Assembly: GCA_050613775.1 (NCBI GenBank)
Contig: JBODTK010000016.1
Coordinates: 1,302,001 to 1,366,000, forward strand
Direction of reading: 5' to 3'
Source of the DNA: Neocallimastix sp. 'constans'
Taxonomy: Eukaryota
Length of the DNA: 64,000 bases
The notes beneath the pieces were generated by a model. That model searched no databases and was not told the origin of the DNA. It was given only the letters and a program-made list of their open reading frames with translations. Shown here piece after piece: positions 1 to 22,124 of the stretch (position 1 is the first letter of the stretch; each line of letters opens with the position of its first letter). The position numbers and the translations under genes were made by a program.

Positions 1-319
1 TTTAATTTTTAATTTTTTTTTATTTTAGTGTTTATTTCTATATTTATTATTATTCTGTCCCGAACCTCAACATTATTGGTAAAGAATAAATTAATAACCT
101 TTATTTTATTATTAATAATTCTTTACTAAATTGTACTTTCCTATATTCTTGATAACCTAAACTTAATAATAAAATTTAATTTATTTTGATATAAATTAAT
201 TTTAACTTGTAAATAATGTAAATAAATTTTAATTAATTACTTTATTGTTATATTATTAAATATATGTATATATTAAAATACAATTGTAAATATTAAAATT
301 ATACTTTTAAGATACTAAA

Positions 320-760
320 TTATTAAAACTATTAATTAAATATTATTATAAAAATTATTATAAAATTATTAAAACTATTAATTAAATATTATTATAAAAA
401 TTATTATAAAATTATTAAAATTATTAATTAAATATTATTATAAAAATTATTATAAAATTATTAAAATTATTAATTAAATATTATTATAAAAATTATTATA
501 AAATTATTAAAATAATTAATTAAATATTATTATAAAAAATATTATAAAATTATTAAAATTATTAAAATTATTAATTAAATATTATTCTAAAAATTATTAT
601 AAATTATTAATATTATAAAATTATTAAAATTATTAAATATTATTATAAAAATTTATTTATTATAACTATTAAATATTATTATAAAATTATTAAGATTATT
701 AATTAAATTTATTATTAAAAATTATTAAAAATTTTTACTTATTATAAAAATTATTATTTA
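320..760. repeat. AT-only minisatellite (~45-bp degenerate units)
   Basis: Repeated AATTAAATATTATTATAAAAATTATTATAAAATTATTAAAA(C/A)TATT. Confidence 0.8.
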
Positions 761-1281
761 AATATTATCAAATTTATTAATTAAATATTATAAAAATTTT
801 ATTTTATTTTGAAAATAATTACAAGTATTATTTAAAATAATTAAAGATTATTAAATTTATTATATTAATCTTTAAAAACAATTTATTTAACTTAAAAATA
901 TCAAAGAAAATAGTAAAAACTATTTTCTATATATTTATTTTATAATTATTTTTAATTAAATTGTATTTGAATATTATATTATTATATTTATAAAAATTAA
1001 AACAAAAATGAATTATTGATATAAAATTAATTCAATAATTCTATAAAATTACTTAAATTATAAACAAATAATTATACTTTAAATTCATAAAAAAATATAA
1101 ATATTGTAAATATTTCTTAAAAATTAAATATGTGTACTTTAAATAATAAAATTTTATATTAATAAATAATAAACACTTTTTAATAAAAAAAAATTTTTCT
1201 TTGTTAAAATCAAAGCAGGGTAATACCCGTCCCCCCTGCTTGATTTTAAATCAATAAGAATTACCCCTAGTCTACCATTAT

Positions 1282-2611
1282 TGATAAGAATGTACTTAAT
1301 AATGCATTCTTAATTAAATCTACGATTTATTTTGTTAAAAAGTAAACAGATTGAATTTAACGAGGAATCAGGTTGATATATCTATATAATATAACTATAT
1401 AGATATAAGTAAATTACTAAAATAAAAGAGTTATAAAGTTAAATTTGTTAATTTAACACTTAATTAAAACTAATAATTGGTTTGATATGATAAAAATTTT
1501 TATTTATTAATAAAAATATATAGTTATATTATAATAGGTTAACTATAACCTTACAAAGAACAAAAAGATAAATTTGAATTTTCTTTTTATACTTTGTAGG
1601 TTTGAGAATATTGATAATAATAATATAAAGTTGATAATAATAATATTTAGTATAAGAATATGTTTAATATAAATAAATTATATTTTTTAATCTAATATAT
1701 TAGCTAATATATAAAATATAATATTAAATTTAAATATTTAATATAGTAATTAATAATTAATAATTAATTAAATCAATATAACATAAATTAATACATAAAC
1801 ATTAATTTATGAATCAAGGATGACATGACCAAATGATTCATGTTAATAAATATTTTATTTATTAATAATATTTAAGTTTAATATGATATCATTAGAATCA
1901 GTAGGCCTAAGCTGGTCCTAAGATGATCAAATAACTTATAATATTATAAAATAAATAAAATTTAAAGAATAATTAATGAATTATAAATTTTTATTAATTA
2001 TTTTGTTTTTAATAATTTTAATTGAAATTAATTGAAATTGAAATTTAATTCAGTTGTAATTTCAACATATTTCTAATACATTATGTGTACATTATTATTT
2101 TTGTACTTTAATAAATTTTTAAATCCAAAGATCAAAAATTAAATCAAAAATTATATTAAACTTTATATTTTTATATTAAATCTTATATTAATAGTAATAT
2201 TTTTATATATTTAAAACTTATATTAGCAATATTAATAATAAGTCTTATTTTTTTTTTTTATATTAATAATGAAAATTTGTATTAATAATATTTTTATATA
2301 TTGATGATTAAAAATTTATATATTATATTTTAACCTTTATTATAAAATTTTATATCGAAATGTTTTATTTTATATTGAAAAATATTTTATTTTATTAAAA
2401 ACATTTATATTAGAATAGTATTTTTATTTTTATTTGAATATTTTAACAGATTGTAATAAAAATTATAGCCAATCAAATAAATTCATAAATAAAAATAATA
2501 AATAAATATCAAAAAAAAATAAATTTAATAAAATAAATAAATAAAATAAATAAATAAAAAAAATTTGTGTTTCTTTACTTTATTTTTATTTAATTCTCTA
2601 AAACCTTAACA
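1282..2611 (+). repeat. E1 5' LTR (~590 bp, interrupted by a 735-bp insertion plus TSD)
   Basis: 1282-1332 and 2073-2611 align with the 3' LTR with only a handful of differences; TG...CA ends. Confidence 0.93.
1333..2067. mobile_element. Solo LTR of another family nested in the E1 5' LTR
   Basis: Ends TGTTAAAA...TTTCAACA; flanked by TATTT at 1328-1332 and 2068-2072; the 3' LTR has the empty site with a single TATTT. Confidence 0.88.
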
Positions 2612-2617
2612 TTTATA

Positions 2618-2637
2618 TGGTGGAGATATCGGGGAAT
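2618..2637 (+). promoter_or_regulatory. Primer binding site, probably tRNA-Ala
   Basis: TGGTGGAGATATCGGGGAAT 6 nt after the LTR end; complementary to a tRNA 3' end ...CCCCGAUAUCUCCACCA, resembling eukaryotic tRNA-Ala ends. Confidence 0.8.
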
Positions 2638-2823
2638 TAAATAGAAATAATAGTAAATAACATAGATTTTTTTTTATTTTTTTTTTTTTTATTTTATATT
2701 GATAAACAAGTAAGTCGTTAATCCTTTGATTAACCTATGGCGCTTGTTTGATATATATATATAAAAAAAAAAAAAAATTTTTTAAATAAGTAAAATTAAG
2801 ATTCTAAAAAAAAAGATTGTAAA

Positions 2824-3109
2824 TTATAACAAGGAGCGGATAGAGCTCATATACAGTGTATTTCCAGAAAACAACAAAATATCTATTATTCATAGTAGGT
2901 TATTGGATAATAGTTATTTTGGGAATTAATTGGAAAGTAGACGAAGGTATTTGGTTACCGACCCGGTAATAATAGTTCAGCCTTCAACGTTTCAACACAC
3001 GAAGGTGCGGGTACTTTCCAAGCACTGGCGAATAAGGAGCTTACGTCACCGAAGGCGTAAGATTGTTTTTTTTTATATTTTTTTTTATTTTTCTTTGTGC
3101 TAGTTATAA
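2824..3109 (+). ncRNA. Structured cis-acting leader RNA element, copy 1 (E1); function unknown
   Basis: Shares three identical blocks and covarying stems with 10576-10861. Confidence 0.7.
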
Positions 3110-3633
3110 GGCACTTTATTATATAAAGTATCAGACTTTGGCTAACTTCGCCATTTAAATTTTTTTTATTTTTTTTTTATTACTGATACTTTATTTGTTT
3201 AATAATTCCTGTAAAAGAATCTTAATTTACTTTGAAAATATTGTGTTTTTAGTTAATTTTTATTAGTTAATAAAAATATTATTGAATACTTTTAAAATTT
3301 TTTTTATTCCGTACATAGATTATCGGATTAAGTTTATCCTATATAGTAATTGGGCTAGTGGGCTCTGAACTGCTATATTTTATATTGAATATAGTAATCG
3401 TGGCACACGCGTGGCATGACACCATAGGTAAGCTGCACGTCAGACAGTGTGTACTATCAGATTGTACGACAATAAAGATTATTTTTTGTGTTTAATAATT
3501 ATAATTAATTAATTTTATTAGCTATAACAATACAATATTTATTGTTTAAAAAGAAAAATTTTTGAAAGGTGAAAATAATAAATAAAACTTTGCTTCTAAA
3601 TTTATTACTACAAATATACTAAATTACAAAATT

Positions 3634-3947
3634 CAAGTGGTCGATAAAGATTTCGAGCTTGAAAAATATTCTATTAAGTTGTCGATAAAGATTTCGAACT
3701 TAAAATTATTCTATTAAGTTGTCGATAAAGATTTCGAACTTAAAAATTATTCTATTGAGTTGTCGATAAAGATTTCGAACTTAAAAATTATTCTATTGAG
3801 TTGTCGATAAAGATTTCGAACTTAAAAATTATTCCATTGAGTTGTCGATAAAGATTTCGAACTTAAAAATTATTCTTAATAAAGTAGTCGAAAAGAACCT
3901 CGTGCTTTATAATTTCTACTAAGTTGTCGATAAGGATTTCGAGCTTA
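3634..3947 (+). repeat. Tandem array of 8 x ~41-bp hairpin-forming units in the E1 leader
   Basis: Unit about AAGTTGTCGATAAAGATTTCGAACTTAAAAATTATTCTATT; starts near 3635, 3676, 3716, 3757, 3798, 3839, 3882, 3921. Confidence 0.95.
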
Positions 3948-4121
3948 TATCTACTAAAGAAAGCAAATAAAATTATTATTTTCAAAAGTTACTAAAATAT
4001 ATTGTTTTAAAAATTGATTCGATATTAAATTACCTATTAAATTATATTTTTAAAGTTGTATTTCCAAATTTATTTTTATTTAATCACCTCATTAATATAC
4101 AACAAGAAATATTTAAACAAA

Positions 4122-5024
4122 ATGTCCAAGGAAACAACTTTGAGCTTTAAAGAATTGAAAAAAGAATTAAGAGATATTGTGAAACTTAGCAAGGACAATT
4201 TAGATATTAAGTCCTGGGCTACTGAATTAAAACTTTGGATCAAGATACAAGGTATTACAGATCCAGAAACAATATTTAATGCTTGTTTACTTACCAGCTC
4301 TGGTGAAGTACAACGCGTTATTGAAGATTTGGGAGAAGATAGTGATGATGAAAGTGATGATTCATCAGATGAAGAAGAAGATGATGATGAAAAAGAAAAT
4401 GTTGATGATGATATTAAATTTCCTTCTCTTGGAAAAATTATTTCAAGTCTTGAAAATTTTTACGGTATTAAAGAAGACCAAAATTTACTTCTTAAAGAAC
4501 TTCGTGCAATGCGAATTAAAAGAAACGAAAAGATTAAAGACTTTAATGTAAGATATAGAACTTTGTACACTAAACTTGATAAAAAGAGAAGAAAGCGCAT
4601 TGGTGTACTAGATTATATTGATTCTATTCAAAATAATTATGAAGCCTGGAAGAAATTATCCCTTAAAGATGATATAAGTATGGATAAAGCTTTCAAAATT
4701 GCCGAGAAAGTAGATAGACTTTCTGTAAAGAACAATAATACCTATAATATTAATTCCCAACATAATCAAAATAATCAAAACAGTACTACTTCAAGACTTT
4801 ATTCTAAAAGAAGAAACGAAAATTTCCAATCAAGTCAAACAAATAATAAACCGAAACCTCAAGATATTATAGAAGAATCAACCCAGAAAATGAGAAATTT
4901 ATCTGTTAAAACTTGCTTCTTCTGTAAGGAAGAAGGTCATTACTCATACTATTGCCCTCAATTAAATAAGATTATGGAAAAAAATAAAAAAGAAATATAT
5001 TCCAAAAAGTCTTTAAACTTCTAA
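4122..5024 (+). CDS. gag: E1 Gag with CCHC zinc knuckle
   Basis: First ATG at 4122 (MSKETT); C-terminal CFFCKEEGHYSYYC (CX2CX4HX4C); intact ORF. Confidence 0.9.
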   Translation: MSKETTLSFKELKKELRDIVKLSKDNLDIKSWATELKLWIKIQGITDPETIFNACLLTSSGEVQRVIEDLGEDSDDESDDSSDEEEDDDEKENVDDDIKFPSLGKIISSLENFYGIKEDQNLLLKELRAMRIKRNEKIKDFNVRYRTLYTKLDKKRRKRIGVLDYIDSIQNNYEAWKKLSLKDDISMDKAFKIAEKVDRLSVKNNNTYNINSQHNQNNQNSTTSRLYSKRRNENFQSSQTNNKPKPQDIIEESTQKMRNLSVKTCFFCKEEGHYSYYCPQLNKIMEKNKKEIYSKKSLNF

Positions 5025-5064
5025 ATGGGAGCAGAAGCACTCCCAATGACAAAACAATAGCTTC
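5012..5064 (+). promoter_or_regulatory. -1 programmed ribosomal frameshift signal (slippery heptamer plus H-type pseudoknot)
   Basis: T TTA AAC at 5012-5018 in gag frame; 7-nt spacer; S1 TGGGAG/CTCCCA (5026-5031/5040-5045); S2 GAAGC/GCTTC (5034-5038/5060-5064); -1 frame open into ORF 5207-5800. Confidence 0.85.
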
Positions 5065-8000
5065 ATTAAATAATTTACAAAATAATACTTTTACTAAGAA
5101 TACTCCAATTGATAATAATTCCTTTAATGAAGAATCTGAAGAATCTGATTTTAGTGACACAACTGAAAGTGAGGATGATATCATTATAAATGCTATAAAA
5201 AGAAAAATGAATGATAATAACAGCGAAAAAGAAGAAAATAATTCCAAGAAAGTACATAAAAGTTTAAAAGATAATCCACGTCCTTTCGCAACTCCTGCTT
5301 TAAGAAAGAAGAAAGAAAATGAGCTACATAATAAACCCAATAAAGTTTATAAAAATCAAATACTTCCTTCAATTTTAACTCAACCAAATATAAACAAAGA
5401 AAAACAAAAAGAAAAGGAATTAAGAAATATGACAAGAGTAAGAGAAAGTAAAGAAGAAAACAACAATTATTCATCAAAAGGAAAGGAAAAAGTTGAATCT
5501 GAAGATATACGTGCAATCGATAATGAAATAGAAGATCTAGAAATGAATAAAGATAATCATCAAAATAAAACTAATACTTTGGAAAAATTAATTTCAATAA
5601 AAACTAAAGAAACTAATAATGAAAATACTCAGTTAGTAAAAAGGAATATCAAAATGATGAATAATAAAGAACCTTACAATATTATGGATGATTTAAATAA
5701 TCTTAAATCCAGTATTACGATAGGTCAACTCTTGAATGCATGTCCGAAAATTCGTTCACAATTAATTCAAGGTTTAAAGTTAGAAAAATCTAAAAAATAA
5801 TTGGAACTGTAGACAATGTAATAGCACGAACTTTATTAGTAAATAACTATGATCATAGCTACATAAGTAAAAGTAATGAAGTAGCCGAAGAAGACTTAGC
5901 AATGGTTGATGCAAGTGTTGACGGAGTACTAGGAAAACTTTTAATTGATTCTTGTAGTAACCTAAGCATCGTTACTAAGCAGTATTTTGATAAATTACCT
6001 GGTGAATATGAAACAGTTGGAAAAAGTCGTGGAAGAATCCAACTTGCAACACAAGATGAAGAATACTCGGAAGGAATTATTGTTTGATTACCAGTAAAAA
6101 TTAATAATTATGAATTTAATGCGGACTTTAGAATTATTGAGAAAGAAGACTCTTTTTATGATATGTTATTAAACTTTAAAACTCAAATCGATCATTGTTT
6201 ATTTATTCATCCGACCTTAAACAGTTTATGTAAACTTTTGTCAGAAAGTGAATACAAAGAAATAGCTAAAATAAATAATCAATATTATGAGGAAGAAAGT
6301 ATAATTTGCACTATTAGAAAAGTTAAAGAAACGAATAATGAAAAGGAAATTATAAAGGAATTAACTCCAACGGAATTTATTGAGAGTGATGAATTTTTAA
6401 GTACCTTAAATAAAGATTATAAAGAACAAATTATTAAAATTCTCAAAGAAATGATTGACATAGTTGCCACTTCAACAGAAGAACTAACTCCTTCTAAACT
6501 TTCACCACATAAGATCCGTTTAAAAGCAAATGCAAAGCCAGTAAAATTAAGAAGTTATAGGTTAACTAAATTAAAATCAGACATCTTAAAAGAAGAACTT
6601 ACAAAGCTTATTAAGAAAGGATTGATAGAACCATCCTGTTCAGAATGGTCATCTCCAGTAGTACTTATTCTAAAACACAATGGAAAGTGGCGCTTGTGCA
6701 TTGACTACCGAAAAGTCAATGATATGACAGAAAAAGATTCTTATTCAGTTCCATATATAGATGAAATTTTTGATAGTCTCGGAGGAGCTAAAATATTTAC
6801 AACTCTTGATTTATTTTCGGGTTTTCACCAAATCTTAATGGATGAAGAAAGCGTTGAAGTAACCACTTTCACTACTAAGTTTGGAAATTATCAATTTAAG
6901 GTTATGCCTTTTGGACTTACTGGAGCTCCCTCAACCTTCCAAAGAGAAATGAATAAAATTTTATTCCCTTTTATTGGTGAATTTGTTTATGTATTTATTG
7001 ATGATGTTTTGATCTATTCAAAAAGTATCGAAGAACATTTAATTCATATTAAACAAGTATTAGAAGTATTTAAAGAAAACAAGTTAAAAATTAATATTGA
7101 AAAGTGCCATTTTCTTCAAACTGAAGTTGATGTATTAGGTCACAAACTTACTACTAAAGGATTAAGTCCCATGGAAAGTAAAATAACAGCTATTAAGAAG
7201 TGGGAAGCCCCTTCATCACTTCATGAATTAAGATCATTTCTAGGAGCAGTAGGATATTATCGTGACTTTATTCCTAAATATGCTCAAATTACCTCACCTT
7301 TATGTAAATTATTGAAAAAGAATACTAAATATGAATGGAATAAAGAACAACAAGAAAGCTTTGAACTCCTAAGAGAAAAATTAATCAATGCACCTATTCT
7401 AAAATTTCCGTCATTTGACAAACCTTTTATCATTAGAACTGATGCTTCGTATAATGGAATTGGTGGAGTTCTTTTACAAAAAGAAGAAGAAACCGGTAAG
7501 GAGCATCCAATACATTTTATAAGTAGAAGTTTGAAGAAAGCTGAAAAGAATTATGGTATCACAGATTTGGAAGGAACCGCTTTGTTTTACTGTATGACTA
7601 AATTTAAATCTTATATTGAAGGAAATCCATTACCTACAACTATTTACACAGATCATAAACCATTAGTTGGTTTATTTAAGAATAAAGAACCTTTGAATGC
7701 AAGGCAAACAAGATGGTGTCTAACCGCTAGTATGCTTGGAATTAATATAAAATATGAATCAGGCAAAAAGAATGTGTTAGCTGATGCTCTTTCAAGAATG
7801 AAAAGTAAGGAAGAGAGAAAGATATTATTAACAAAAATTACTAATGGAAATAATGAAGAATTATTATCTAAAGTTATAAAGGAATTTATTAATGAAAAGT
7901 TTACTGTTATTGATGGTGAAGATTACTTTATCGACAATGGAAATTATAGAAAATTAATAACGGACGAAAATGAAAGGTTTAAATTAATTTTAGAAGCTCA

Positions 8001-9023
8001 TAATATTGGCCACGAAGGATATTATAAAACATATCAAAGACTTAAGAAAAACTTTTATTGGAATCATATGATTAAAGATATCAAAAGAATTGTTAGTAAT
8101 TGTGAAAAATGCCAGTTAAATCGTCCTCAACCATATCCAGAACCAACCGAAAACCATCCAACTAAAGTAGAGGGTCCCTTTGTGCATTTAGGATTAGATA
8201 TTATAGGACCGTTACCAAAAACAAGAAATAATAATCAATATATTATAGTAACTGTTGATTACTTTACCAAATGGGTTGAAGCCGAACCCACTGAAAACAT
8301 AACTTCCTCTGATATAATTAAATTTTTAATAAACGTTTTTGCAAGACATGGTGTACCTCAAGTTATTACTACTGATAATGGAGTCCAATTCACTTCTGAT
8401 ATGACTAAAATCTTTCTTGATCTTTATGATGTATATGTTAAATTTGTAGCTACTTACCACCCTGAATCAAATGGCCTTACTGAAAATCGAAATAAAGAAA
8501 TTGGAAAATTACTCCGTTTTTTATAAAGGAAAAATCAAGATTGGGATGAAGTTTTACCTTCTGCTTTATGGACACTTCGAACTACCAAAAATACAGCTAC
8601 TGGACATTCTAGTTTTGAATTAGTATATGGAAGAGAAGACCAACTGCCTTATGATATAGCCATAAGAACAATTGAAAATGCAGATAAATCATATGATGAA
8701 ATTTTAATGGAAAAATTTGTTCGTCATTATCAATGGACTAGAGAAGCATGCGAAAATGTGAAGAATGCTAACAAGTATTGGGCAACAAGACGAGAAGAAC
8801 AAATAAGTATGAAAAAGGAAAAGAATTAAAGGCTGGTGATCTTGTTCTTGTTAGAAACTTTAGCCGCACTAAGCTAGAACCATATTACAATGGACCATTT
8901 AAAATTTTAAAAATTCAATTCAACACGGCAACCCTAATCGATCAGAAGACTGGAAAGCAACTCGATAGGAATGTTCACTTTAAAAATTTAGTAAAGTTTA
9001 ACTCCGCTTACAGAGAAGCTTGA
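5012..9023 (+). pseudogene. pol: E1 pol (linker, protease, RT, RNase H, integrase with GPY/F), disrupted
   Basis: LLIDSCS protease; RT motifs WRLCIDYRKVN, MPFGL, FIDD; RNase H TDAS; integrase H-H-C-C and D,D,E; GPFKI. Frame change near 5795 and near 8820; in-frame stops at 6085 and 8524. Confidence 0.93.
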
Positions 9024-9041
9024 GTCTTCGTCGGGGCATCT

Positions 9042-9632
9042 TGATAAGAATGTACTAAATAATGCATTCTTAATTAAATCTACGATTTATTTCTAATACA
9101 TTATGTGTACATTATTATTTTTGTACTTTAATAAATTTTTAAATCCAAAGATCAAAAATTAAATCAAAAATTATATTAAACTTTATATTTTTATATTAAA
9201 TCTTATATTAATAGTAATATTTTTATATATTTAAAACTTATATTAGCAATATTAATAATAAGTCTTATTTTTTTTTTTTATATTAATAATGAAAATTTGT
9301 ATTAATAATATTTTTATATATTGATGATTAAAAATTTATATATTATATTTTAACTTTTATTATAAAATTTTATATCGAAATGTTTTATTTTATATTGAAA
9401 AATATTTTATTTTATTAAAAACCTTTATATTAGAATAGTATTTTTATTTTTATTTGAATATTTTAACAGATTGTAATAAAAATTATAGCCAATCAAATAA
9501 ATTCATAAATAAAAATAATAAATAAATATCAAAAAAAAAATAAATTTAATAAAATAAATAAATAAAATAAATAAATAAATAAAATTTGTGTTTCTTTACT
9601 TTATTTTTATTTAATTCTCTAAAACCTTAACA
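9042..9632 (+). repeat. E1 3' LTR (591 bp)
   Basis: Direct repeat of the 5' LTR without the nested insertion. Confidence 0.95.
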
Positions 9633-10575
9633 TTATGAGTTTCGTTACACTAGATAAGAGATTTGTTAAGATTAGAAAACCCTTTCTTATTTAACCTTAT
9701 TTTCATAAAAAAATATAAATAAGGCTCTTAAGTTCTCTTTGAGAAATCAAGAGTTATTATTATAAAAACATAGTTATAATAGTAACAATTTTATATTTAT
9801 TTTTAACTTTAATAAATTAATAAAATATTTTATTCAAAAAACATATTTTAAAATCAAATTTATACAAATAATTCTTCTTTTGCTTTTCGTGTTATTATTA
9901 TAATTAATTTTATAATAAACTCTATAGGTAAAAAAAAAATTTTATTTTATTTTATTTTCTCAACTTAATGAATTAGTCGTTAAGTTGTAGTTAATAATTC
10001 TATTTTGAGTTAGTTCTTAATAGAATTATTACAATAATAACTCTTATTAGATTAGTTTAGGGTTAGATAAAATGTGAAAAATTTTTAGAATAGTGTAACA
10101 TTGGAAATTTTATTAGTGAATTAGTCTATTGAAATTATATATATTAGAATACAATAATAATATATATAGCTAGAGTGGCGCAAAAAAAAATTTTTTTATT
10201 AGCAATTTTGATTGAAAAAAAAAAAAAATTATATTAAAAAAAAATTATATTAAAACAAAAAAAAAAAAAAAAAAATTTTTTTAATAGTTAATAATAGAAT
10301 AATGAATTAATATTTTAGAATAGTTTTAGAGTAATTATAATAATTTAAAATAATTAAAATAATTTTAGAATAAATATAATAATATATAATAATATATAAT
10401 AGCTTTAGAATAATAATAAATTAGAATTATTTTAATAATTTAGAATTAATAGTATAGAATAATTTTAGTTAATATAATTAAGAATAGGAACAATAATTTA
10501 AAATAATTAAAAAAAAAATAATAATAAATAAATAAAGAAATAAACAAAAACATTAAAAAAAAAAAAATAAAAAAC

Positions 10576-10861
10576 AACAAACTGAGAAGGTAATAATACC
10601 TTCATATATAGAGTTAGCCATCTAACTGGGGATGGTGAGTACATTTTTAGGTAGTAATAAAGGAAAGGTCTCCTTTTCCTATACAGTAGCGGTTTGTACT
10701 GTACGGAAATGCTGTATTTAATGTGAAAGTATAGGTTATCCGAATGTAGCTCTAGCGAATAAGGAACTCTTGGTCACCGAAGGCCTCGAGGTTCTTCAAT
10801 ATTATGTATTGAAGTAAAATTATATAGTTTTAATTTTAATAATGGGTTTTAACAGTTTGTT
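10576..10861 (+). ncRNA. Structured cis-acting leader RNA element, copy 2 (E2); function unknown
   Basis: Same block order and stem topology as 2824-3109 with different stem sequences. Confidence 0.7.
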
Positions 10862-11332
10862 TATCACAAACAAAATTGGTTATAGCAGTCATGTTTCTTT
10901 TATGCTTGATTATATAAAACTGCTATGGAAAACATAAAATATTTTTTTATGTTTTAATGGATCACTTTTGCCGGTTTTTGAATGTTGTAAGACATAAGAA
11001 AGTGATATTGAGTTTTAATTAAAATAATACTAAATATTGTATTTATGCAGAAGTTTATAATAAAGGATAAGTTTATAATAATATTTTGTTAATCATTTTA
11101 ATTTAATTTCCAAGTACGTAGTTGACCGTTACTGGTAGGCTGTAACATTAGACCTACACCTAAGCCCTTTGGTTGATAAACCAAATGAACGGTAACATGG
11201 AAAGGAAGAAATTAAAGTGTATTCTATAAATTATTTATTAATTAAAATCCTTATTATAATTCTTAATTTTGTGTAATAAGAATGTCCATTTTGTTAACTC
11301 TATCATATTTTATCTATACATAAGGCACAAAA

Positions 11333-14300
11333 ATGGATTTCAATAGTAATAAACAAGCAATTTCTTCAAGTGAAGTTAATAATTCCTATATCCATGATGA
11401 AAATGCATTCAAACATATTACTGCAATCGCTGACTTCATTCCTGCTTTCTTTCCTCCAAAAGGAAAATGAAAGCAATAAACTAAATATCTTAGAAATTTT
11501 AATTCAAAGTGAAGATTTCTTTAAGGAGCATCCAAATTCTTTTCAAAAGGACGAACTAAAAAGTTCTTTTGTTATTAATAAACTTACTGGTACCGCTAGA
11601 AAATGGGGTCTCTCTCTTTTAACTGATGGTACTCTAAAGAACCTTAAATTTAGTAAGTTTAAGAAGCTCTTACTGGATAACTTTGATATTGGGAATGAAA
11701 GGAAGCAAAAATATGTCATCATGGAAAAGTTGTGGAAATTGAAACAACTTCAATTAGGAAATGTTGCTGAATATACTATTGAATTTCGGAGATTGGCTGG
11801 ACGTTTAGGATGGCCCGACGAAGTTTTAATTGATATCATCGGTAAGGGTCTACTTGACAAAGTCCGCGAAGAGTTTGATAAACTCAAAAAGCCATTTACT
11901 CTTTTTGAAGCTACCAACATTATTATTGGAATTGATAAGAGGTGTTTTTTGGAAAGTCGTTTACGCCACAAACAAAAAAATAAATTTAATAGAAAAATGT
12001 CGTTTCATAGGAAGAGAAACGATTTATTAAAATCAGAAAAGAATTCTAAACATTCTCATTTTAGAAAAAATAAGTCTAAAAACGACATACTTTCAGCAAA
12101 TTACAACCCGAATATTAAAACAACAATCACAACTACCTTCTACCTTGATATTAATGGAAGAAATATTAAGGCAAATCTATTAATTGATTCGGGTTCCGCC
12201 AGAAGTTTTATTTGTAAAATCTTCGCAAATTCTAATAAATTACCTGTGTTAGGATTTAATTCTCAAATCAGCATCCAACTTCCTAATGGGAAAAGTATGA
12301 ATATCAGACAAACTACTAAGCCCCTTAAATTAAAATTTATGGATCATAAGGAAACTTTTGAATTCTGCATTGTTAATCTATTTCTTCAGGGCATTAATGG
12401 TATTCTTGGAAGGGATTGGTTATCCGTTCACAATCCTTTTATCGACTATAAAAATAATAGAATCTACTTCCTTGGTAGATACTGTGGCTCACATTGCCCA
12501 TCCTCCAGAAGTAATAAGTTTTTTAATCAAAATAAAAATATTACTGCTTCAATGTTGGATAATTCAGAAGAAGATTCAGTATTACCAAATTCGGCTTTTG
12601 ATACAGATATCTCAGATTCTGATTTATGTGCTGCAATGATTGATTCAGAAGAAACAAGCACTGACGTTCAGGGAAAAGAAGAGATTATTAATAAACACTA
12701 TTCGGATCTTAAAATAGTATATGAAAAGAAACAAGCTGAGAACTTACCACCCCATCGTGACTATGATATTGCTATTGAGCTTATTCCTCGTGGACAACTC
12801 TTTTTGGTCCAATATACTCTCTTACTGTACAAGAAATGAAAGCTTTAAAGGATTATATTAAGGAAAATTTAAAAAAGAAATTCATTAGAAAGTCAAAATC
12901 ACCAGCAGGTGCTCCTATATTATTTGTAATGAAACGCAATGGTATCCTTAGACTCTGTGTAGATTATCGCCGATTAAATGCTATCACAATCCGTAATAGC
13001 TACCCAATTCCAAGAATAAATGACTTGATTGAATCCTTTCAAGGAGCAAAGATATTTACTCGTCTTGACCTTAGGTCTGCTTATAACCTAATCAGAGTTA
13101 AAGAAGGTCACGAATATCTTACTGCTTTTAGAATCCCTTTAGGACATTTCGAATATCTCGTTATGCCTTTTATACTTCGAAATGCCCCTTAGGTTTTTCA
13201 ACGTTTTGTACAAGATATCTTCAGTGATATCATTGGTTCTTTCGTGTAAGTCTATCTGGACGACATCATTATTTACTCTAACCACGAAAAAGAACATATT
13301 AAACATGTTAGGATTGTTCTTCAACTTCTCATCAACAATGGATTATATGCTAAATTAGAGAAATGTGACTTCCATGTTACTAAAACCACTTTCTTAGGCT
13401 TCACTGTTTCTGTAGATGGTCTCACTATGGATAAGGATAAGGTAAAAACTGTTCTGGATTGGCCTATTCCAAAGAATCAAAAGGAATTACAAAGTTTTCT
13501 AGGCTTATGTAATTTCTATCGAAAGTTTATCTACAATTTTGCCAAAAATATGGAACCTCTTCGTCGACTTTTAAGGAAAAATACTACATTTAATTGGGAT
13601 GAATCAGCATTTGAAGCTTTTAATAAATTGAAAGAATCTTTTAAAGCTGATGAAGTGCTCATTTTTCCTAATCCAGAGAAAGAATTCATCGTTGAAACAG
13701 ATGCTAGCGACTTTGCTGTCGGTTGCATACTTTCTCAGGTTAGTGATACTGATAACTTACTGCATCCCGTAGCCTTCCATTCTAGATCCCTCAATAAAGC
13801 AGAAGTCAATTATACTATATATGATAAAGAACTTCTTGCTATAATTACTGCGTTTGAAACTTGGAGGCATCATTTAGAAGGCGCAAAATTTCCCGTTCAA
13901 GTAATAACAGACCACAAGAACTTATTGTATTTTAAGAAACCCCAACATTTAATTCAAAAACAAATTCGTTGGAGTCTCTTTTTATCAAAGTTTGACTATA
14001 AGATTGCATTCAGATCAGGCGCTAAAAGTGGCAAACCAGATGCTCTTTCAAGACGCCCAGATTTTAAATCTGACTCTTCATCTGAATCACAACCTATAAT
14101 TAACAATAATGCTTTCTGCTGTGCTATAAATGACAATATTAGTAGTCTTATTGAAGCAAAGAAAACTGATAATTATTGTAAAAATAACCTTTTAAAAATA
14201 AGGGATAAGTCAAACAACGCCAAAAGTTCTTTATTTTCCTTCGTCGATGGCGTGCTTCACTTTCAAAAGCGTATTATTATCCCTTCCAGTCTCAGGGCTA

Positions 14301-15360
14301 GACTTTTAAAGTCTTTCCATGATGCACCCACTAGTGGCCATCAGGGGGTAGATAGGACCTTTGAAAAACTCAGAAGGAACTACTGGTGGCCTAATATGAA
14401 AAAAGATATTTCAAATTATGTGACTTCTTGTGATGTTTGTTGAGAAATAAAATCCATCGTCATAAACCTTATGGTAAACTAATACCACTTCCTACTCCTA
14501 CAAAACCCTGGGAAGTTATTGACGTCGATTTTATTGTTTCATTGCCTTCTTCACAAGATTGCATTTGTATCATGGTTGTTTCTGATCATTTAACCAAAAT
14601 GATTCATTTAGTACCCTGCTCCGATGTTCCCTCTGACGATTTAACTGCCAAGCTCTTACTTTTCCAAGTCTTTAAGTATCATGGTTTTCCTAAAGTGATT
14701 GTGTCTGATCATGGTTCCCAATTCTCTTCTCAATTTTGGACTTCGTTGTGCGATGCTATTCGTGCTAAACTAAGACTTGCTACTGCTCACCACCAACAAT
14801 CAAATGGTCAGGTTGAACGGGCTAATGCTGTAATAGAACAATATCTTCGCTGCTATTGTTCTTCTGCTCAAAACGAATGGTGTTTCTACCTCCCTTTATG
14901 TGAAATGTCCTACAACAACTTCATTCACAAATCAATATCTCAAACTCCTTTTCATGCTAACTATGGATTTGACCCAAATTGTGTTATTGATTCACCACCG
15001 ATTCTGCTAAAAGATAGTGACTCTGTTCTTACTAGGGATTGGTCTTCACATTTCAATGCCCTTCGTCAACATTTAGTTAAAGCCAAAGAAGATTTTAAGA
15101 AATATGCTGACAATAAAAAATCTGTAGGACCTGACTTTAAGGTAAATGATTTGGTTATGCTTAGATGATACTACTTTACGAATGAGCATTCTAGAAAATT
15201 ATCCACTCAATAACTTGGACCTTTTAAAATCATCGAGAAAAGGGAAAGAATGAATTACCATTTGGAACTTCCAGAGAACTTACATCTCCATCCTGTATTT
15301 CATATCTCACAATTGGAACCATATACTAAAAGAAATGAAGACTTAATGGAAACATCATAA
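11333..15360 (+). pseudogene. E2 gag-pol polyprotein pseudogene (Gag, protease, RT, RNase H, integrase)
   Basis: LLIDSGS protease; [43 protein letters not shown]...CDVC, SDHGSQF, GQVER; GPFKI and HPVFHISQLEPY. Gag and protease in one frame. Frameshifts near 11460, 12805, 14440; stops at 13190, 13247, 15166, 15211. Confidence 0.92.
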
Positions 15361-15469
15361 TTAAACAGAGCAATGTAAGAATCTATAATTATTTGCTAAC
15401 AAATAATTATATTTTCTTAGTTAAGTTATCTCTTTTCTGTGTCTCTACACCATGCACCTCCATTACAAT

Positions 15470-15780
15470 TATAAAGGTCTTATGAATCAGAAACATATTA
15501 CAAGAATTATTTAATTTCAATAAGCCTATTAAAATTTACACTGACAATATAGCTAGCAAAACCAACATTAAGAAAGACGAAATCAACACTATATTAAAAT
15601 ATATCCATATTAAATTTTTCTTTAATAAAAACAGCATCAATGAAAGTAAAATAACTTTAGATTATATTGAGTCAAAGGAAATGCTAGCTGATAATATTCT
15701 AACAAAACATAAAAATAGTAAAAATATAGTTAACTTCGTGAACAAAGTTTTTATAAATGAAAACTTGTTTGAGAGGGAAG
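15470..15780 (+). mobile_element. Ty1/Copia remnant: RNase H C-terminus plus polypurine tract; LTR begins at 15781
   Basis: Frame from 15483 reads *IRNILQELFNFNKPIKIYTDNIAS...KYIHIKFFF...LDYIESKEMLADNILTK (Copia RNase H pattern); PPT GAGAGGGAAG 15771-15780 directly followed by TGTT. Confidence 0.82.
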
Positions 15781-17361
15781 TGTTAAAATATGTAAATATT
15801 TAATAAAATAAATCATAAAATATTTCATATAATAAAATATATAAAATATATAAAATATTTGTATATAAATAATATAAATGTATATACATAAATCAATATA
15901 ATATCATATGACGTCATACGATAAATATATATAATTAAAATTATAAATTTTTATTCATGTTCATTTTAAATATAACTTTACATTAATAAATTAACTTTTT
16001 AGTATAAATAAATAAGCAATAATATATACAATTACATTTGTGTGTTTCTACCCATAGTCGTTAAAAATAATGATAATAATAATAATAAATAATAAATAAA
16101 TAATAATGAATAATAAATATTATATAACAAATAATAATAATAATAATATTAATTTTAATATCAATAATGTCCAGTGTTTATGTTTTTTTATTTTTTTATT
16201 TTTATTTTTTTTCTGTTGTTTTTATAAAATTTAATGATACTTTTATCCATATCTTTATTTTCTTTTGTTCATTTTATAATTTATGTATATTTTATAGTTA
16301 ATTCAATTATTAAGAGTTTTATTTTATATTTATTTTTCAATTCAATATATTATGAATAATATAAAAATCTACAATAAATTTAATATTTTATAATTTAATA
16401 TCAATATGAATATTTTTCAAATATACTTTATATATGAAAATATTTATTAATAGATTTTGTTCTTTTTATTAATTATTTCTTTTATTTATATTTAATAAAT
16501 CTTTTTTTTATTTATTTTTCTTTTTTAAAAAAAAAAATAAAAATTAATAAATATATAATATTAAAAAAAAAAAAAGAGGATCATATATAAAAAGATTTTA
16601 TATAAAGTGGTTTTGTTCTTTTTTAAAAAATATATATTATTATTATTTTTTTATTTATTTATTTATTTTATTTTTTTCTTTTAATCAAGATTTATTTTAG
16701 TAAGTAGTATACATATATATTAATAATCAAATTTAAATAATATAAAACTTTTTTTTTTTATTAAATCAATATTATTTAAAAATAATTAAAAAAAAAAAAT
16801 AGTACAAAAAAAAAAAAACATTTTAAAAGAACCAAAAAGTATTTTTTTTTTTTTACTATATTTTTTCTCTACTTAATATATATAAATAGACAAATATTCT
16901 TTCTTCTATTTACATATATATATAAAAATCTATTTATTTATGTAATATTAATTATTTTTTTTTAATTATTTTTTTTTATTTTTAATTTTATTTTTTTTTT
17001 TTAATATATTGAAAATATTATTAAATAAACAGAATCTTTTTTAAAACTATAAAGACAACAAGAATCTTTTTTTTTTTTTTTCTATTTATAAAAAAGGAAA
17101 TAATAATAAAAATAATAATAATAATAATTGAATAAATAATTTGTTGTTATATTCCTGATTATTTTATAAACTTAAACAGTAAACAAATAGCAAATTAAGC
17201 AATAAATCAAAAGAAAAAAAAAATAAAAAATTTGATTTTTTTAAATATCTTTTTTTTTTTTTTTTTTTTTTGATATTCTTTTTTAATAATATAATAATAT
17301 CTTACTTTTGTTTAAAAAACATATCAGTATTCTTTAATTTAAAATAAATAAAATAATAAAG

Positions 17362-21585
<4,224 letters not shown>

Positions 21586-22124
21586 ACTGCTTTTGATGTA
21601 TATAAAAAATCTATTATTCGATTATTTCTTTTTTTTATATATAAACTATTTTTAATAATATGTTTAATAATTAAATTTTATTTATTTATTAAAGATTTCT
21701 ATTATTATTATTTTTTTATTAAATAATTGATAATTATGATTTTAAATTGTTGTTTTCATAATATGATAATAATAATTATAAAAATCGGTCAATAAATAAA
21801 TAAATAAATAAAACTATTAACATCAAAATAATTATATATAATATTGTAATACTAAATTTTATATTCGTTTATATGTGAAAAAATAATAATAATTCAAGTT
21901 ATTTTTTACAATTAATAAATTCAAATAGTAAAATTTAAACAAATAATAATAATAATAATAATAATACAAGATATCTTTATAACTAAGAAATACGAATAGT
22001 AAAATTTAAACAATACAAAACAAAAAAATAATAAAAGATACTTTTACAATTTATAAATACGAATAATGAAATTTAAACACATAAAAAAAAAAATAAAAAT
22101 AAAAATAAAATAAAATAAAATAAA

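What the first reader, a model, noticed from the sequence alone, without database searches (positions are those of the whole stretch)
10576..10861. Second copy of the shared leader RNA element in E2, with a splice donor inside it
Seen: same architecture as 2824-3109, with its own internal hairpins (CCATCT/GGATGG, AGGAAAGG/CTTTTCCT, TACAGTA/TACTGTA, TACATTT/GAATGTA) and an extra CTTCAAT/ATTGAAG hairpin after hairpin C. It is a GC-enriched island within nearly pure A/T, ~470 nt before gag. A consensus donor G|GTGAGT (10635) lies inside stem B's domain, and a TACTAAA...TTTATGCAG acceptor ends at 11050. Inference: splicing would destroy the element, so it may mark unspliced genomic RNA or regulate splicing.
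Basis: partly seen in the sequence, partly recalled or inferred. Interest (0 to 1): 0.7.

Follow-up and report, generated by a model that had tools for sequence, protein, structure and literature searches.

The report
Shared folded RNA in retrotransposon leaders
Three very different jumping genes, likely all from anaerobic gut fungi, carry the same roughly 300-base RNA module, predicted to fold alike, in front of their first gene; it likely helps the full-length RNA through a host partner, and the splice site seen inside this copy is probably incidental.

Summary
The RNA element is real; the splicing story is weak. All named motifs sit where stated, and the region folds better than 200 of 200 shuffles (z -4.7). 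The same core (closing stem, hairpin, CAUAWA, a stem around a 146-180 nt insert, GCGAAUAAGGA, a hairpin tipped by GUCACCGAAGGC, U-rich tract) occurs in E1 and in a third Ty3/gypsy leader, L004. L004 was found by the 3' core alone, yet has the predicted upstream parts (2 of 20,000 shuffles). The elements' proteins are only about 30% identical or do not align. No Rfam family matches. The donor GTGAGT is absent from E1 and L004, is expected by chance, and four RNA or probable-RNA runs showed no joint. E1 and L004 leaders are purged of upstream ATGs (2 vs 18.3 expected; 0 vs 8.9), so the module is likely kept in a scanned, unspliced leader. E2 is not purged, so E2-specific splicing stays open. Two further structures shared by E2 and L004 lie downstream. 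Function is untested; a host-factor platform on full-length RNA is my best guess, a new ribozyme or riboswitch the bold one. Only three copies were found.

The parts
10576..10861 (+). Motif 1, E2 copy: predicted multi-stem leader RNA
   Evidence: z -4.68; homologous cores in E1 and L004
10576..10584 (+). P1 5' arm; pairs with 10853-10861 and closes the module
   Evidence: 9 bp, pairing probability 0.55-1.00; different but paired letters in E1 and L004
10586..10603 (+). P2 (hairpin A)
   Evidence: 7 bp here, 4 bp of other sequence in E1 and L004
10604..10608 (+). Conserved junction AUAWA after the invariant UC of P2
10609..10754 (+). P3 (10609-10614 with 10749-10754) and the variable insert it closes; 146 nt here, 174 in E1, 180 in L004
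   Evidence: 18 of 18 cells pair over six positions, two positions with changes on both sides; P3 is in the unconstrained MFE of the isolated domain in 3 of 3 copies
10635..10640 (+). GTGAGT donor-like hexamer at the end of an internal hairpin arm; no evidence of use
   Evidence: present, chance level, absent from the E1 and L004 motifs, no joint
10755..10765 (+). Invariant junction GCGAATAAGGA
   Evidence: 3 of 3 copies; 10 of its 11 letters were part of the search pattern that found L004
10766..10793 (+). P4 (hairpin C) with invariant tip GTCACCGAAGGC at 10773-10784
   Evidence: the pair under the tip is C-G, G-C and A-U in the three copies
10794..10852 (+). P5 hairpin (E2 and L004, absent from E1) and U-rich tract before the 3' arm of P1
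10963..11004 (+). Motif 3: small hairpin with a GCC/GGC core, shared with L004 678-722 (aligned by eye)
   Evidence: z -3.0 here, -0.6 in L004; contigs of 4 of 4 runs read G at 10992, which completes the pair as in L004
11028..11050 (+). Branch-like TACTAAA and acceptor-like TTTATGCAG; no evidence of use
   Evidence: present; not seen at the matching place in L004; no joint
11117..11200 (+). Motif 2: about 85-nt predicted junction structure, also twice in L004, not found in E1
   Evidence: blastn 77% over 95 nt; 98.5% of cells paired, 3 pairs changed on both sides; no E1 match
11333..15360 (+). E2 Ty3/gypsy gag-PR-RT-RH-IN, broken into pieces in this copy
   Evidence: Pfam Ty3_capsid, Retrotrans_gag, RVP_2, RVT_1, RT_RNaseH, rve; named relatives from Piromyces and Neocallimastix
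2824..3109 (+). Motif 1, E1 copy, about 190 nt after the primer-binding-site-like tract at 2618
   Evidence: z -4.33
1282..9632 (+). E1 Ty3/gypsy element (LTRs 1282-2611 and 9042-9632, TTAT on both sides), lying directly upstream of the E2 leader
   Evidence: LTRs 99.3% identical over 547 nt; ends read

Best explanation
This is a conserved RNA module, predicted to fold as a multi-way junction, in the 5' leader of Ty3/gypsy retrotransposons likely of anaerobic gut fungi, and it likely acts on the full-length unspliced RNA by presenting fixed loop and junction letters to a host factor that would export, protect or help translate it. Shown: the module sits in front of gag in three elements; its stems change sequence but keep pairing; about 28 junction and loop letters do not change; the E1 and L004 leaders are purged of ATG. 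Inferred: the purge means ribosomes scan through the whole leader, module included, so it is not spliced out and not a cut site in those two. Inferred: because the Gags are unrelated and E2's lacks the CCHC knuckle that E1 and L004 have, the fixed letters are more likely read by something the elements share, the host, than by each element's own Gag. Inferred: the module moves between families by recombination, since L004 resembles E1 in its 5' half and E2 in its 3' half. Not shown: any partner, any activity.
For: E1 vs E2 RT/RH 33% identity, L004 vs E2 gag 30%, E1 gag no blastp hit to either. L004, found by 21 letters of the 3' core only, has CATAWA, P3 and P2 upstream; 2 of 20,000 shuffles of its upstream 300 nt do; 0 of the 6 other pattern hits do. 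It lies before a gypsy-type gag. ATG is the most depleted of 64 triplets in E1 (2 vs 18.3) and L004 (0 vs 8.9), not in three intergenic controls. Upstream of the motif 1 ATG vs 6.1 expected and inside it 0 vs 5.7, E1 and L004 together. Unspliced contigs cover the motif in 3 of 4 runs. Cis elements that recruit host export factors are known in simple retroviruses, and Ty1 RNA export needs Mex67 (PMC3856414, passages).
Against: Only three copies, so covariation is not significant on its own (46-93 of 500 shuffles reach the P4 values). In whole-motif ensembles P3 has probability 0.09 in E1 and 0.13 in L004, and P2 0.33 in L004. E2's leader is not ATG-depleted (16 vs 14.3; rank 16 of 64), so scanning cannot be inferred for the very copy in question. 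The place between primer site and gag is also the classic place of packaging signals (established knowledge). No binding partner is identified. 21 of the invariant letters in L004 were fixed by the search pattern.
Confidence: 0.38

Rival explanations
1. Packaging or dimerisation signal read by the element's own Gag.
For: Position between the primer site and gag. Sister copies of E2 read letters at 10720 and 10722 that make a self-complementary 12-mer inside the insert.
Against: Invariant core across Gags that are 30% identical or unalignable, one without a CCHC knuckle. The palindrome was not seen in E1 or L004.
Confidence: 0.2
2. A new ribozyme or ligand-sensing riboswitch: fixed junction letters form a core and the stems are scaffolds.
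For: The pattern of invariant junctions, free stems and a large variable insert is typical of such RNAs (established knowledge). Self-cleaving ribozymes are common in retroelements (PMC6765202, passages).
Against: No Rfam ribozyme or riboswitch match at E up to 10. A cut between primer site and gag would break the template and uncap the mRNA, at odds with ATG purging upstream of the motif. Contigs run through it.
Confidence: 0.14
3. Splicing regulator: the fold hides a donor at 10635 and so balances spliced and unspliced RNA.
For: The donor starts in a predicted hairpin arm, like the structure-attenuated MLV donor (PMC2794156, start of abstract). 12 of 16 E2 upstream ATGs lie in the proposed intron. 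All three copies have a U-rich tract followed by YAG at the start of the P1 3' arm, which resembles an acceptor.
Against: Donor not in E1 or L004; chance level; no joints in 4 of 4 runs laid; intron unlike host introns; three ATGs of this copy would remain downstream and one at 10632 upstream; ATG purge inside the E1 and L004 motifs argues that they are kept.
Confidence: 0.12
4. Internal ribosome entry site or shunt for gag translation.
For: Long structured leader, U-rich tract after the core, and an ATG-rich E2 leader that scanning could not easily cross.
Against: ATG is depleted before, inside and after the motif in E1 and L004, which fits scanning from the cap. The gag ATG is 370-1,010 nt downstream.
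Confidence: 0.11
5. No function: AT-rich DNA with chance hairpins and a short shared relic.
For: Other stretches of these leaders also reach z -4 to -5.
Against: Out-of-sample architecture in L004 and invariant core across about 30% protein identity.
Confidence: 0.03

Closest known systems
Constitutive transport element (MPMV CTE) and related cis export elements of simple retroviruses (PMC3856414, passages)
   Same: Structured cis element on the full-length RNA of a gag-pol element, with fixed unpaired letters for a host factor (proposed here, shown there).
   Different: No Rfam match; different fold; lies in the 5' leader; shared across unrelated Ty3/gypsy lineages; no partner shown.
Retroviral and Ty packaging/dimerisation leaders (Psi) (recalled; PMC5086612 seen as a search listing only)
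   Same: Location between primer site and gag; several hairpins.
   Different: Such leaders are usually family-specific (recalled); this core is invariant across elements with unrelated Gags.
RSV negative regulator of splicing (PMC3082916, start of abstract) and MLV structure-attenuated donor (PMC2794156, start of abstract)
   Same: A donor-like site inside a structured region of unspliced RNA, in the E2 copy.
   Different: The donor is not conserved in the other two copies; no env gene or spliced product is known here.
ENE triple-helix elements of LTR retrotransposons (PMC12501189, passages)
   Same: Stem-flanked U-rich tract in an LTR retrotransposon RNA.
   Different: ENEs are fold-backs with repeated U-rich tracts as internal loops, described in the 3' UTR; here one U-rich strand lies in a multi-way junction in the 5' leader.
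HDV-like, hammerhead and hairpin ribozymes of retroelements (PMC6765202, passages)
   Same: Compact conserved core with variable stems in a retroelement.
   Different: Core order and letters do not fit by my recalled consensus; no Rfam match; in the passages read they occur in non-LTR elements, SINEs, Penelope-like elements and retrozymes.

Membership tests
Ty3/gypsy LTR retrotransposon (host element E2) | gag, then PR-RT-RH-IN order | tested here: met
   Pfam hits in that order at 11298-15168
Ty3/gypsy LTR retrotransposon (host element E2) | two LTRs | tested here: inconclusive
   No LTR pair found for E2 in the window; E1 has a pair
Any Rfam 15 family | covariance-model score near the family threshold | tested here: not met
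   Best hits 10-21 bits, all far below gathering scores
Spliceosomal intron 10635-11050 | GT donor, branch-like site, YAG acceptor | tested here: met
   Strings present, but at chance level
Spliceosomal intron 10635-11050 | joined form in RNA | tested here: inconclusive
   No joint in 4 runs of contigs, 3 of which cover the donor; contigs drop rare forms; no positive control obtained
Spliceosomal intron 10635-11050 | donor conserved in homologous elements | tested here: not met
   No GTGAGT or GTAAGT in the E1 or L004 motif; unchanged in about 97% identical sister contigs, which is uninformative
HDV-like ribozyme | nested double pseudoknot with P3/L3 and P1 3' arm before P4 | tested here: not met
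   Only a 5-nt junction lies between hairpin A and the long stem; topology recalled; no Rfam match
Hammerhead or hairpin ribozyme | conserved catalytic core letters | tested here: not met
   No Rfam match at E up to 10; inspection against recalled consensus
ENE | U-rich tracts on both strands of an internal loop | tested here: not met
   One U-rich strand only in the predicted folds
CTE-like export element | host export-factor binding and export of unspliced RNA | not testable with these tools
   needs binding and reporter assays
Psi packaging signal | selective Gag binding and encapsidation | not testable with these tools
   needs binding and particle assays

The most novel reading that the evidence does not exclude
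Motif 1 (and perhaps motif 2) is a new class of ribozyme or ligand-sensing riboswitch that spreads as a swappable module among unrelated Ty3/gypsy families of anaerobic fungi and decides whether full-length RNA is translated, spliced at the YAG inside its closing stem, or packaged.
Probability: 0.14. Interest if true: 0.88.

Novelty: new variant of a known kind. Interest (0 to 1): 0.57.

Why it matters
Leaders of LTR retrotransposons usually cannot be aligned between families (recalled). Here a 290-315 nt architecture with a fixed core is shared by elements whose proteins have drifted to about 30% identity. That points to a conserved partner or chemistry and gives a small, defined RNA to test. 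Structured cis-regulatory RNAs in fungi are few, and the two fungal motif surveys I searched do not mention this lineage in their main text. Anaerobic gut fungi also lack expression tools (recalled), so a native RNA stability, export or translation element would be useful.

Tried and rejected
Rfam: no meaningful match for window 1-17000, 10500-11340, L004 150-1040 or the pattern loci. No tRNA gene in the window. More homologues: strict core pattern 0 hits in viral contigs and 0 in prokaryote genomes; looser pattern 2 viral hits, both scoring under 9 bits with model R1; 6 of 7 metagenome hits were chance; motif-2 pattern 9 viral hits, none with the downstream hairpin; protein-based scans of viral contigs found nothing. 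Two related gypsy contigs (L017, L018) hold only about 240 and 110 nt before gag and show neither motif; their assembly has no convincing match. Models R1 and R2 found no further copy in the window. No whole genome is held, so no copy census. A second read-laying meant as positive control for joints gave no data. Depth differences between contigs in run X8 were not used, since contigs cannot show levels. Recalled resemblances of the P4 tip to U1 snRNA loop I and to a glycine riboswitch segment, and of junction letters to HDV-like and ZTP cores, got no support from Rfam and were dropped. My model's 2-bp CC/GG tip has probability 0.00; the energy model prefers a GUC/GGC stem with a 6-nt loop, and invariant letters cannot decide. 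One stem test (labelled CTATAC) had wrong coordinates and is ignored. The host intron ends were set by eye and several are one base off; lengths and GC are not affected in substance. Earlier-findings look-ups by place and sequence were empty.

Full report
Setting. The window is very AT-rich. It holds two Ty3/gypsy elements in a row. E1 has LTRs 99.3% identical over 547 nt, at 1282-2611 and 9042-9632 with TTAT on both sides. E2 follows directly; its gag-PR, RT-RH and IN pieces lie at 11298-15168 and are broken in this copy. Of 27 protein relatives of E2 gag-PR, 4 carry names, all from Piromyces or Neocallimastix, and 6 of the 24 runs listed, 4 of which hold the stretch, are feces metatranscriptomes. 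The host is therefore likely an anaerobic gut fungus. No whole genome is held.

Observation. 10576-10861 folds at -81.7 kcal/mol, z -4.68, 0 of 200 shuffles as good; the E1 copy at 2824-3109 gives z -4.33; each folds better than its reverse complement. A low z alone is weak here, since other parts of these leaders reach -4 to -5.

A third copy. A scan of metagenome contigs with 21 letters of the 3' core gave 7 hits. One, L004 (GC 0.33), lies in front of a gypsy-type gag. It has everything predicted upstream: CATAWA, a 6-bp stem from there to the base before the core, and hairpin A. 2 of 20,000 shuffles of its upstream 300 nt show this, and 0 of the other 6 hits do. This is the strongest evidence, because these parts were not in the search. 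With model R1 the three copies score 60-69 bits by construction and everything else 17 or less.

Anatomy. P1 closes the module with different letters in each copy. P2 is 4 bp in E1 and L004 and 7 bp of other sequence in E2. P3 pairs in 18 of 18 cells, with two positions changed on both sides, and encloses 174, 146 and 180 nt. Then come GCGAATAAGGA and a hairpin tipped by GTCACCGAAGGC, the same in all three; the pair under the tip is C-G, G-C, A-U. E2 and L004 add a hairpin P5 and share the start of the U-rich tract; E1 and L004 share hairpin A and a 10-letter stretch, TAGTAGGTTA, in the insert. L004 thus looks mosaic. Caveats: three sequences cannot give significant covariation (46-93 of 500 shuffles), and P3 is improbable in the whole-motif ensembles of E1 (0.09) and L004 (0.13), although it is in the free MFE of the isolated domain in all three.

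How far apart are the elements? E1 and E2 share 33% in RT/RH and 32% in IN; L004 and E2 gag 30% over 118 residues; E1 gag gives no blastp hit to either. E1 and L004 have a CCHC knuckle, E2's gag-PR reading does not (sequences). Outside the motifs the leaders show only low-complexity matches.

Further modules. E2 and L004 share motif 2, about 85 nt at 11117-11200, twice in L004; 98.5% of cells pair and 3 pairs change on both sides (21 of 500 shuffles). They also share a small hairpin, motif 3, at 10963-11004 (by eye). Letters read in the RNA contigs at 10992, 11162 and 11198 agree with L004 rather than with the window copy, as expected if this copy is decaying and the structures are kept in active ones. 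E1 has no motif 2, and L017 has none in the 240 nt before its gag, so it is not universal.

The splicing claim. GGTGAGT occurs once in the window against 0.64 expected. No GTGAGT or GTAAGT lies in the E1 or L004 motif. Contigs of four runs (two on record as metatranscriptomes, two guessed to be RNA) were laid on 10540-12000: no joint was listed; three runs cover the donor, one contig spans 10584-12000. Contigs drop rare forms, and I obtained no positive control, so this is absence of support, not proof. Eight introns of a host cullin gene, set by eye, are about 95-200 nt with GC 0.03-0.13; the proposed one is 416 nt with GC 0.29. I put splicing regulation at about 0.12.

Upstream ATGs. E1 2620-4121 has 2 ATGs against 18.3 expected and L004 1-1035 has 0 against 8.9; ATG ranks first of 64 triplets for depletion in both, and three intergenic controls show no such loss. 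I started the E1 count after an ATG that overlaps the primer-site tract at 2617-2619, and the LTR part of the leader was not counted. The loss holds before, inside and after the motif when both are pooled (1 vs 6.1, 0 vs 5.7, 1 vs 15.0). The simplest reading is that ribosomes scan these long leaders from the cap, through the module. That argues against removal by splicing, against an obligatory cut and against internal entry in E1 and L004. E2 does not follow this rule, which stays unexplained.

Mechanism. Fixed unpaired letters on freely changing stems mean a partner or a catalytic core. The partner is unlikely to be each element's own Gag, since these differ so much. I therefore favour a platform for a host factor that exports, protects or helps translate full-length RNA (0.38), ahead of packaging signal (0.20), ribozyme or riboswitch (0.14), splicing regulator (0.12), IRES (0.11) and no function (0.03). 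All functional steps are inferred.

What is known. No Rfam family matches. Ten paper searches listed nothing on structured leaders of retrotransposons in this lineage; the library lacks most subscription papers. In the main texts of two fungal RNA motif surveys, Piromyces, Neocallimast- and retrotranspos- have no occurrence (PMC5640933, PMC8216456; term searches). Three supplement files of the first hold none of the core strings, but its alignment files may not be among them, and the supplement of the second could not be read; either could bear on novelty. For comparison I read passages of PMC6765202, PMC3856414 and PMC12501189 and the starts of the abstracts of PMC3082916 and PMC2794156. An earlier AI note on another genome prompted the ENE comparison; the ENE layout is not met here.

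Verdict. A real, apparently undescribed family of leader RNA structures shared across distant Ty3/gypsy lineages; function open; the splice donor probably incidental. Interest 0.57.

Noticed in passing
window 11117-11200; L004 188-273 and 870-955: Motif 2, a second conserved structure of about 85 nt, 85-130 nt before gag; L004 has two 97% identical copies whose outer stems differ but both pair.
   Followed up: partly
window 10963-11004; L004 678-722: Motif 3, a small shared hairpin between motifs 1 and 2.
   Followed up: partly
window 2620-4121; L004 1-1035: Leaders of 1.0-1.5 kb almost free of ATG, a strong sign of translational selection on very long retrotransposon leaders.
   Followed up: yes
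window 10779-10782 region (P4 tip) and 11170-11176: The invariant loop ACCGAA of motif 1 is complementary to the 5' arm of the motif 2 hairpin in E2 and L004; E1 lacks motif 2, so this may be chance.
   Followed up: no
window 3300-3480: A GC-richer, structured stretch (z -2.4) in the E1 leader at the place where E2 has motifs 3 and 2; no homologue found.
   Followed up: partly
window 3635-3947: Tandem array of 7.7 copies of a 41-nt unit in the E1 leader just before gag.
   Followed up: no
window 1333-2067: A 735-nt TG...CA insert flanked by TATTT inside the 5' LTR of E1, likely a solo LTR of another element.
   Followed up: partly
window 2618-2635: Primer-binding-site-like tract after the E1 LTR; by recall it resembles the complement of a tRNA-Ala 3' end.
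   Followed up: no
window 9640-10090 and 1205-1250: Strong AT-rich hairpins (z -4 to -5) upstream of the E2 motif and a GC-rich hairpin just left of the E1 insertion.
   Followed up: no
window 15560-15790: After the E2 integrase, a stretch that by eye reads like a copia-type RNase H end, purine tract and LTR start; E2's own 3' end seems replaced.
   Followed up: no
window 18540-21586: Host cullin-like gene with at least 8 short, very AT-rich introns; used as reference for host introns.
   Followed up: partly
L017, L018: Two AT-rich contigs with fungal-type gypsy gag-pol (56% and 44% identity to E2 gag-PR) inside a bacterial metagenome-assembled genome, likely contamination.
   Followed up: partly
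window 4988-5800: E1 has a second, low-complexity ORF of 270 aa between gag and pol with no Pfam match.
   Followed up: no
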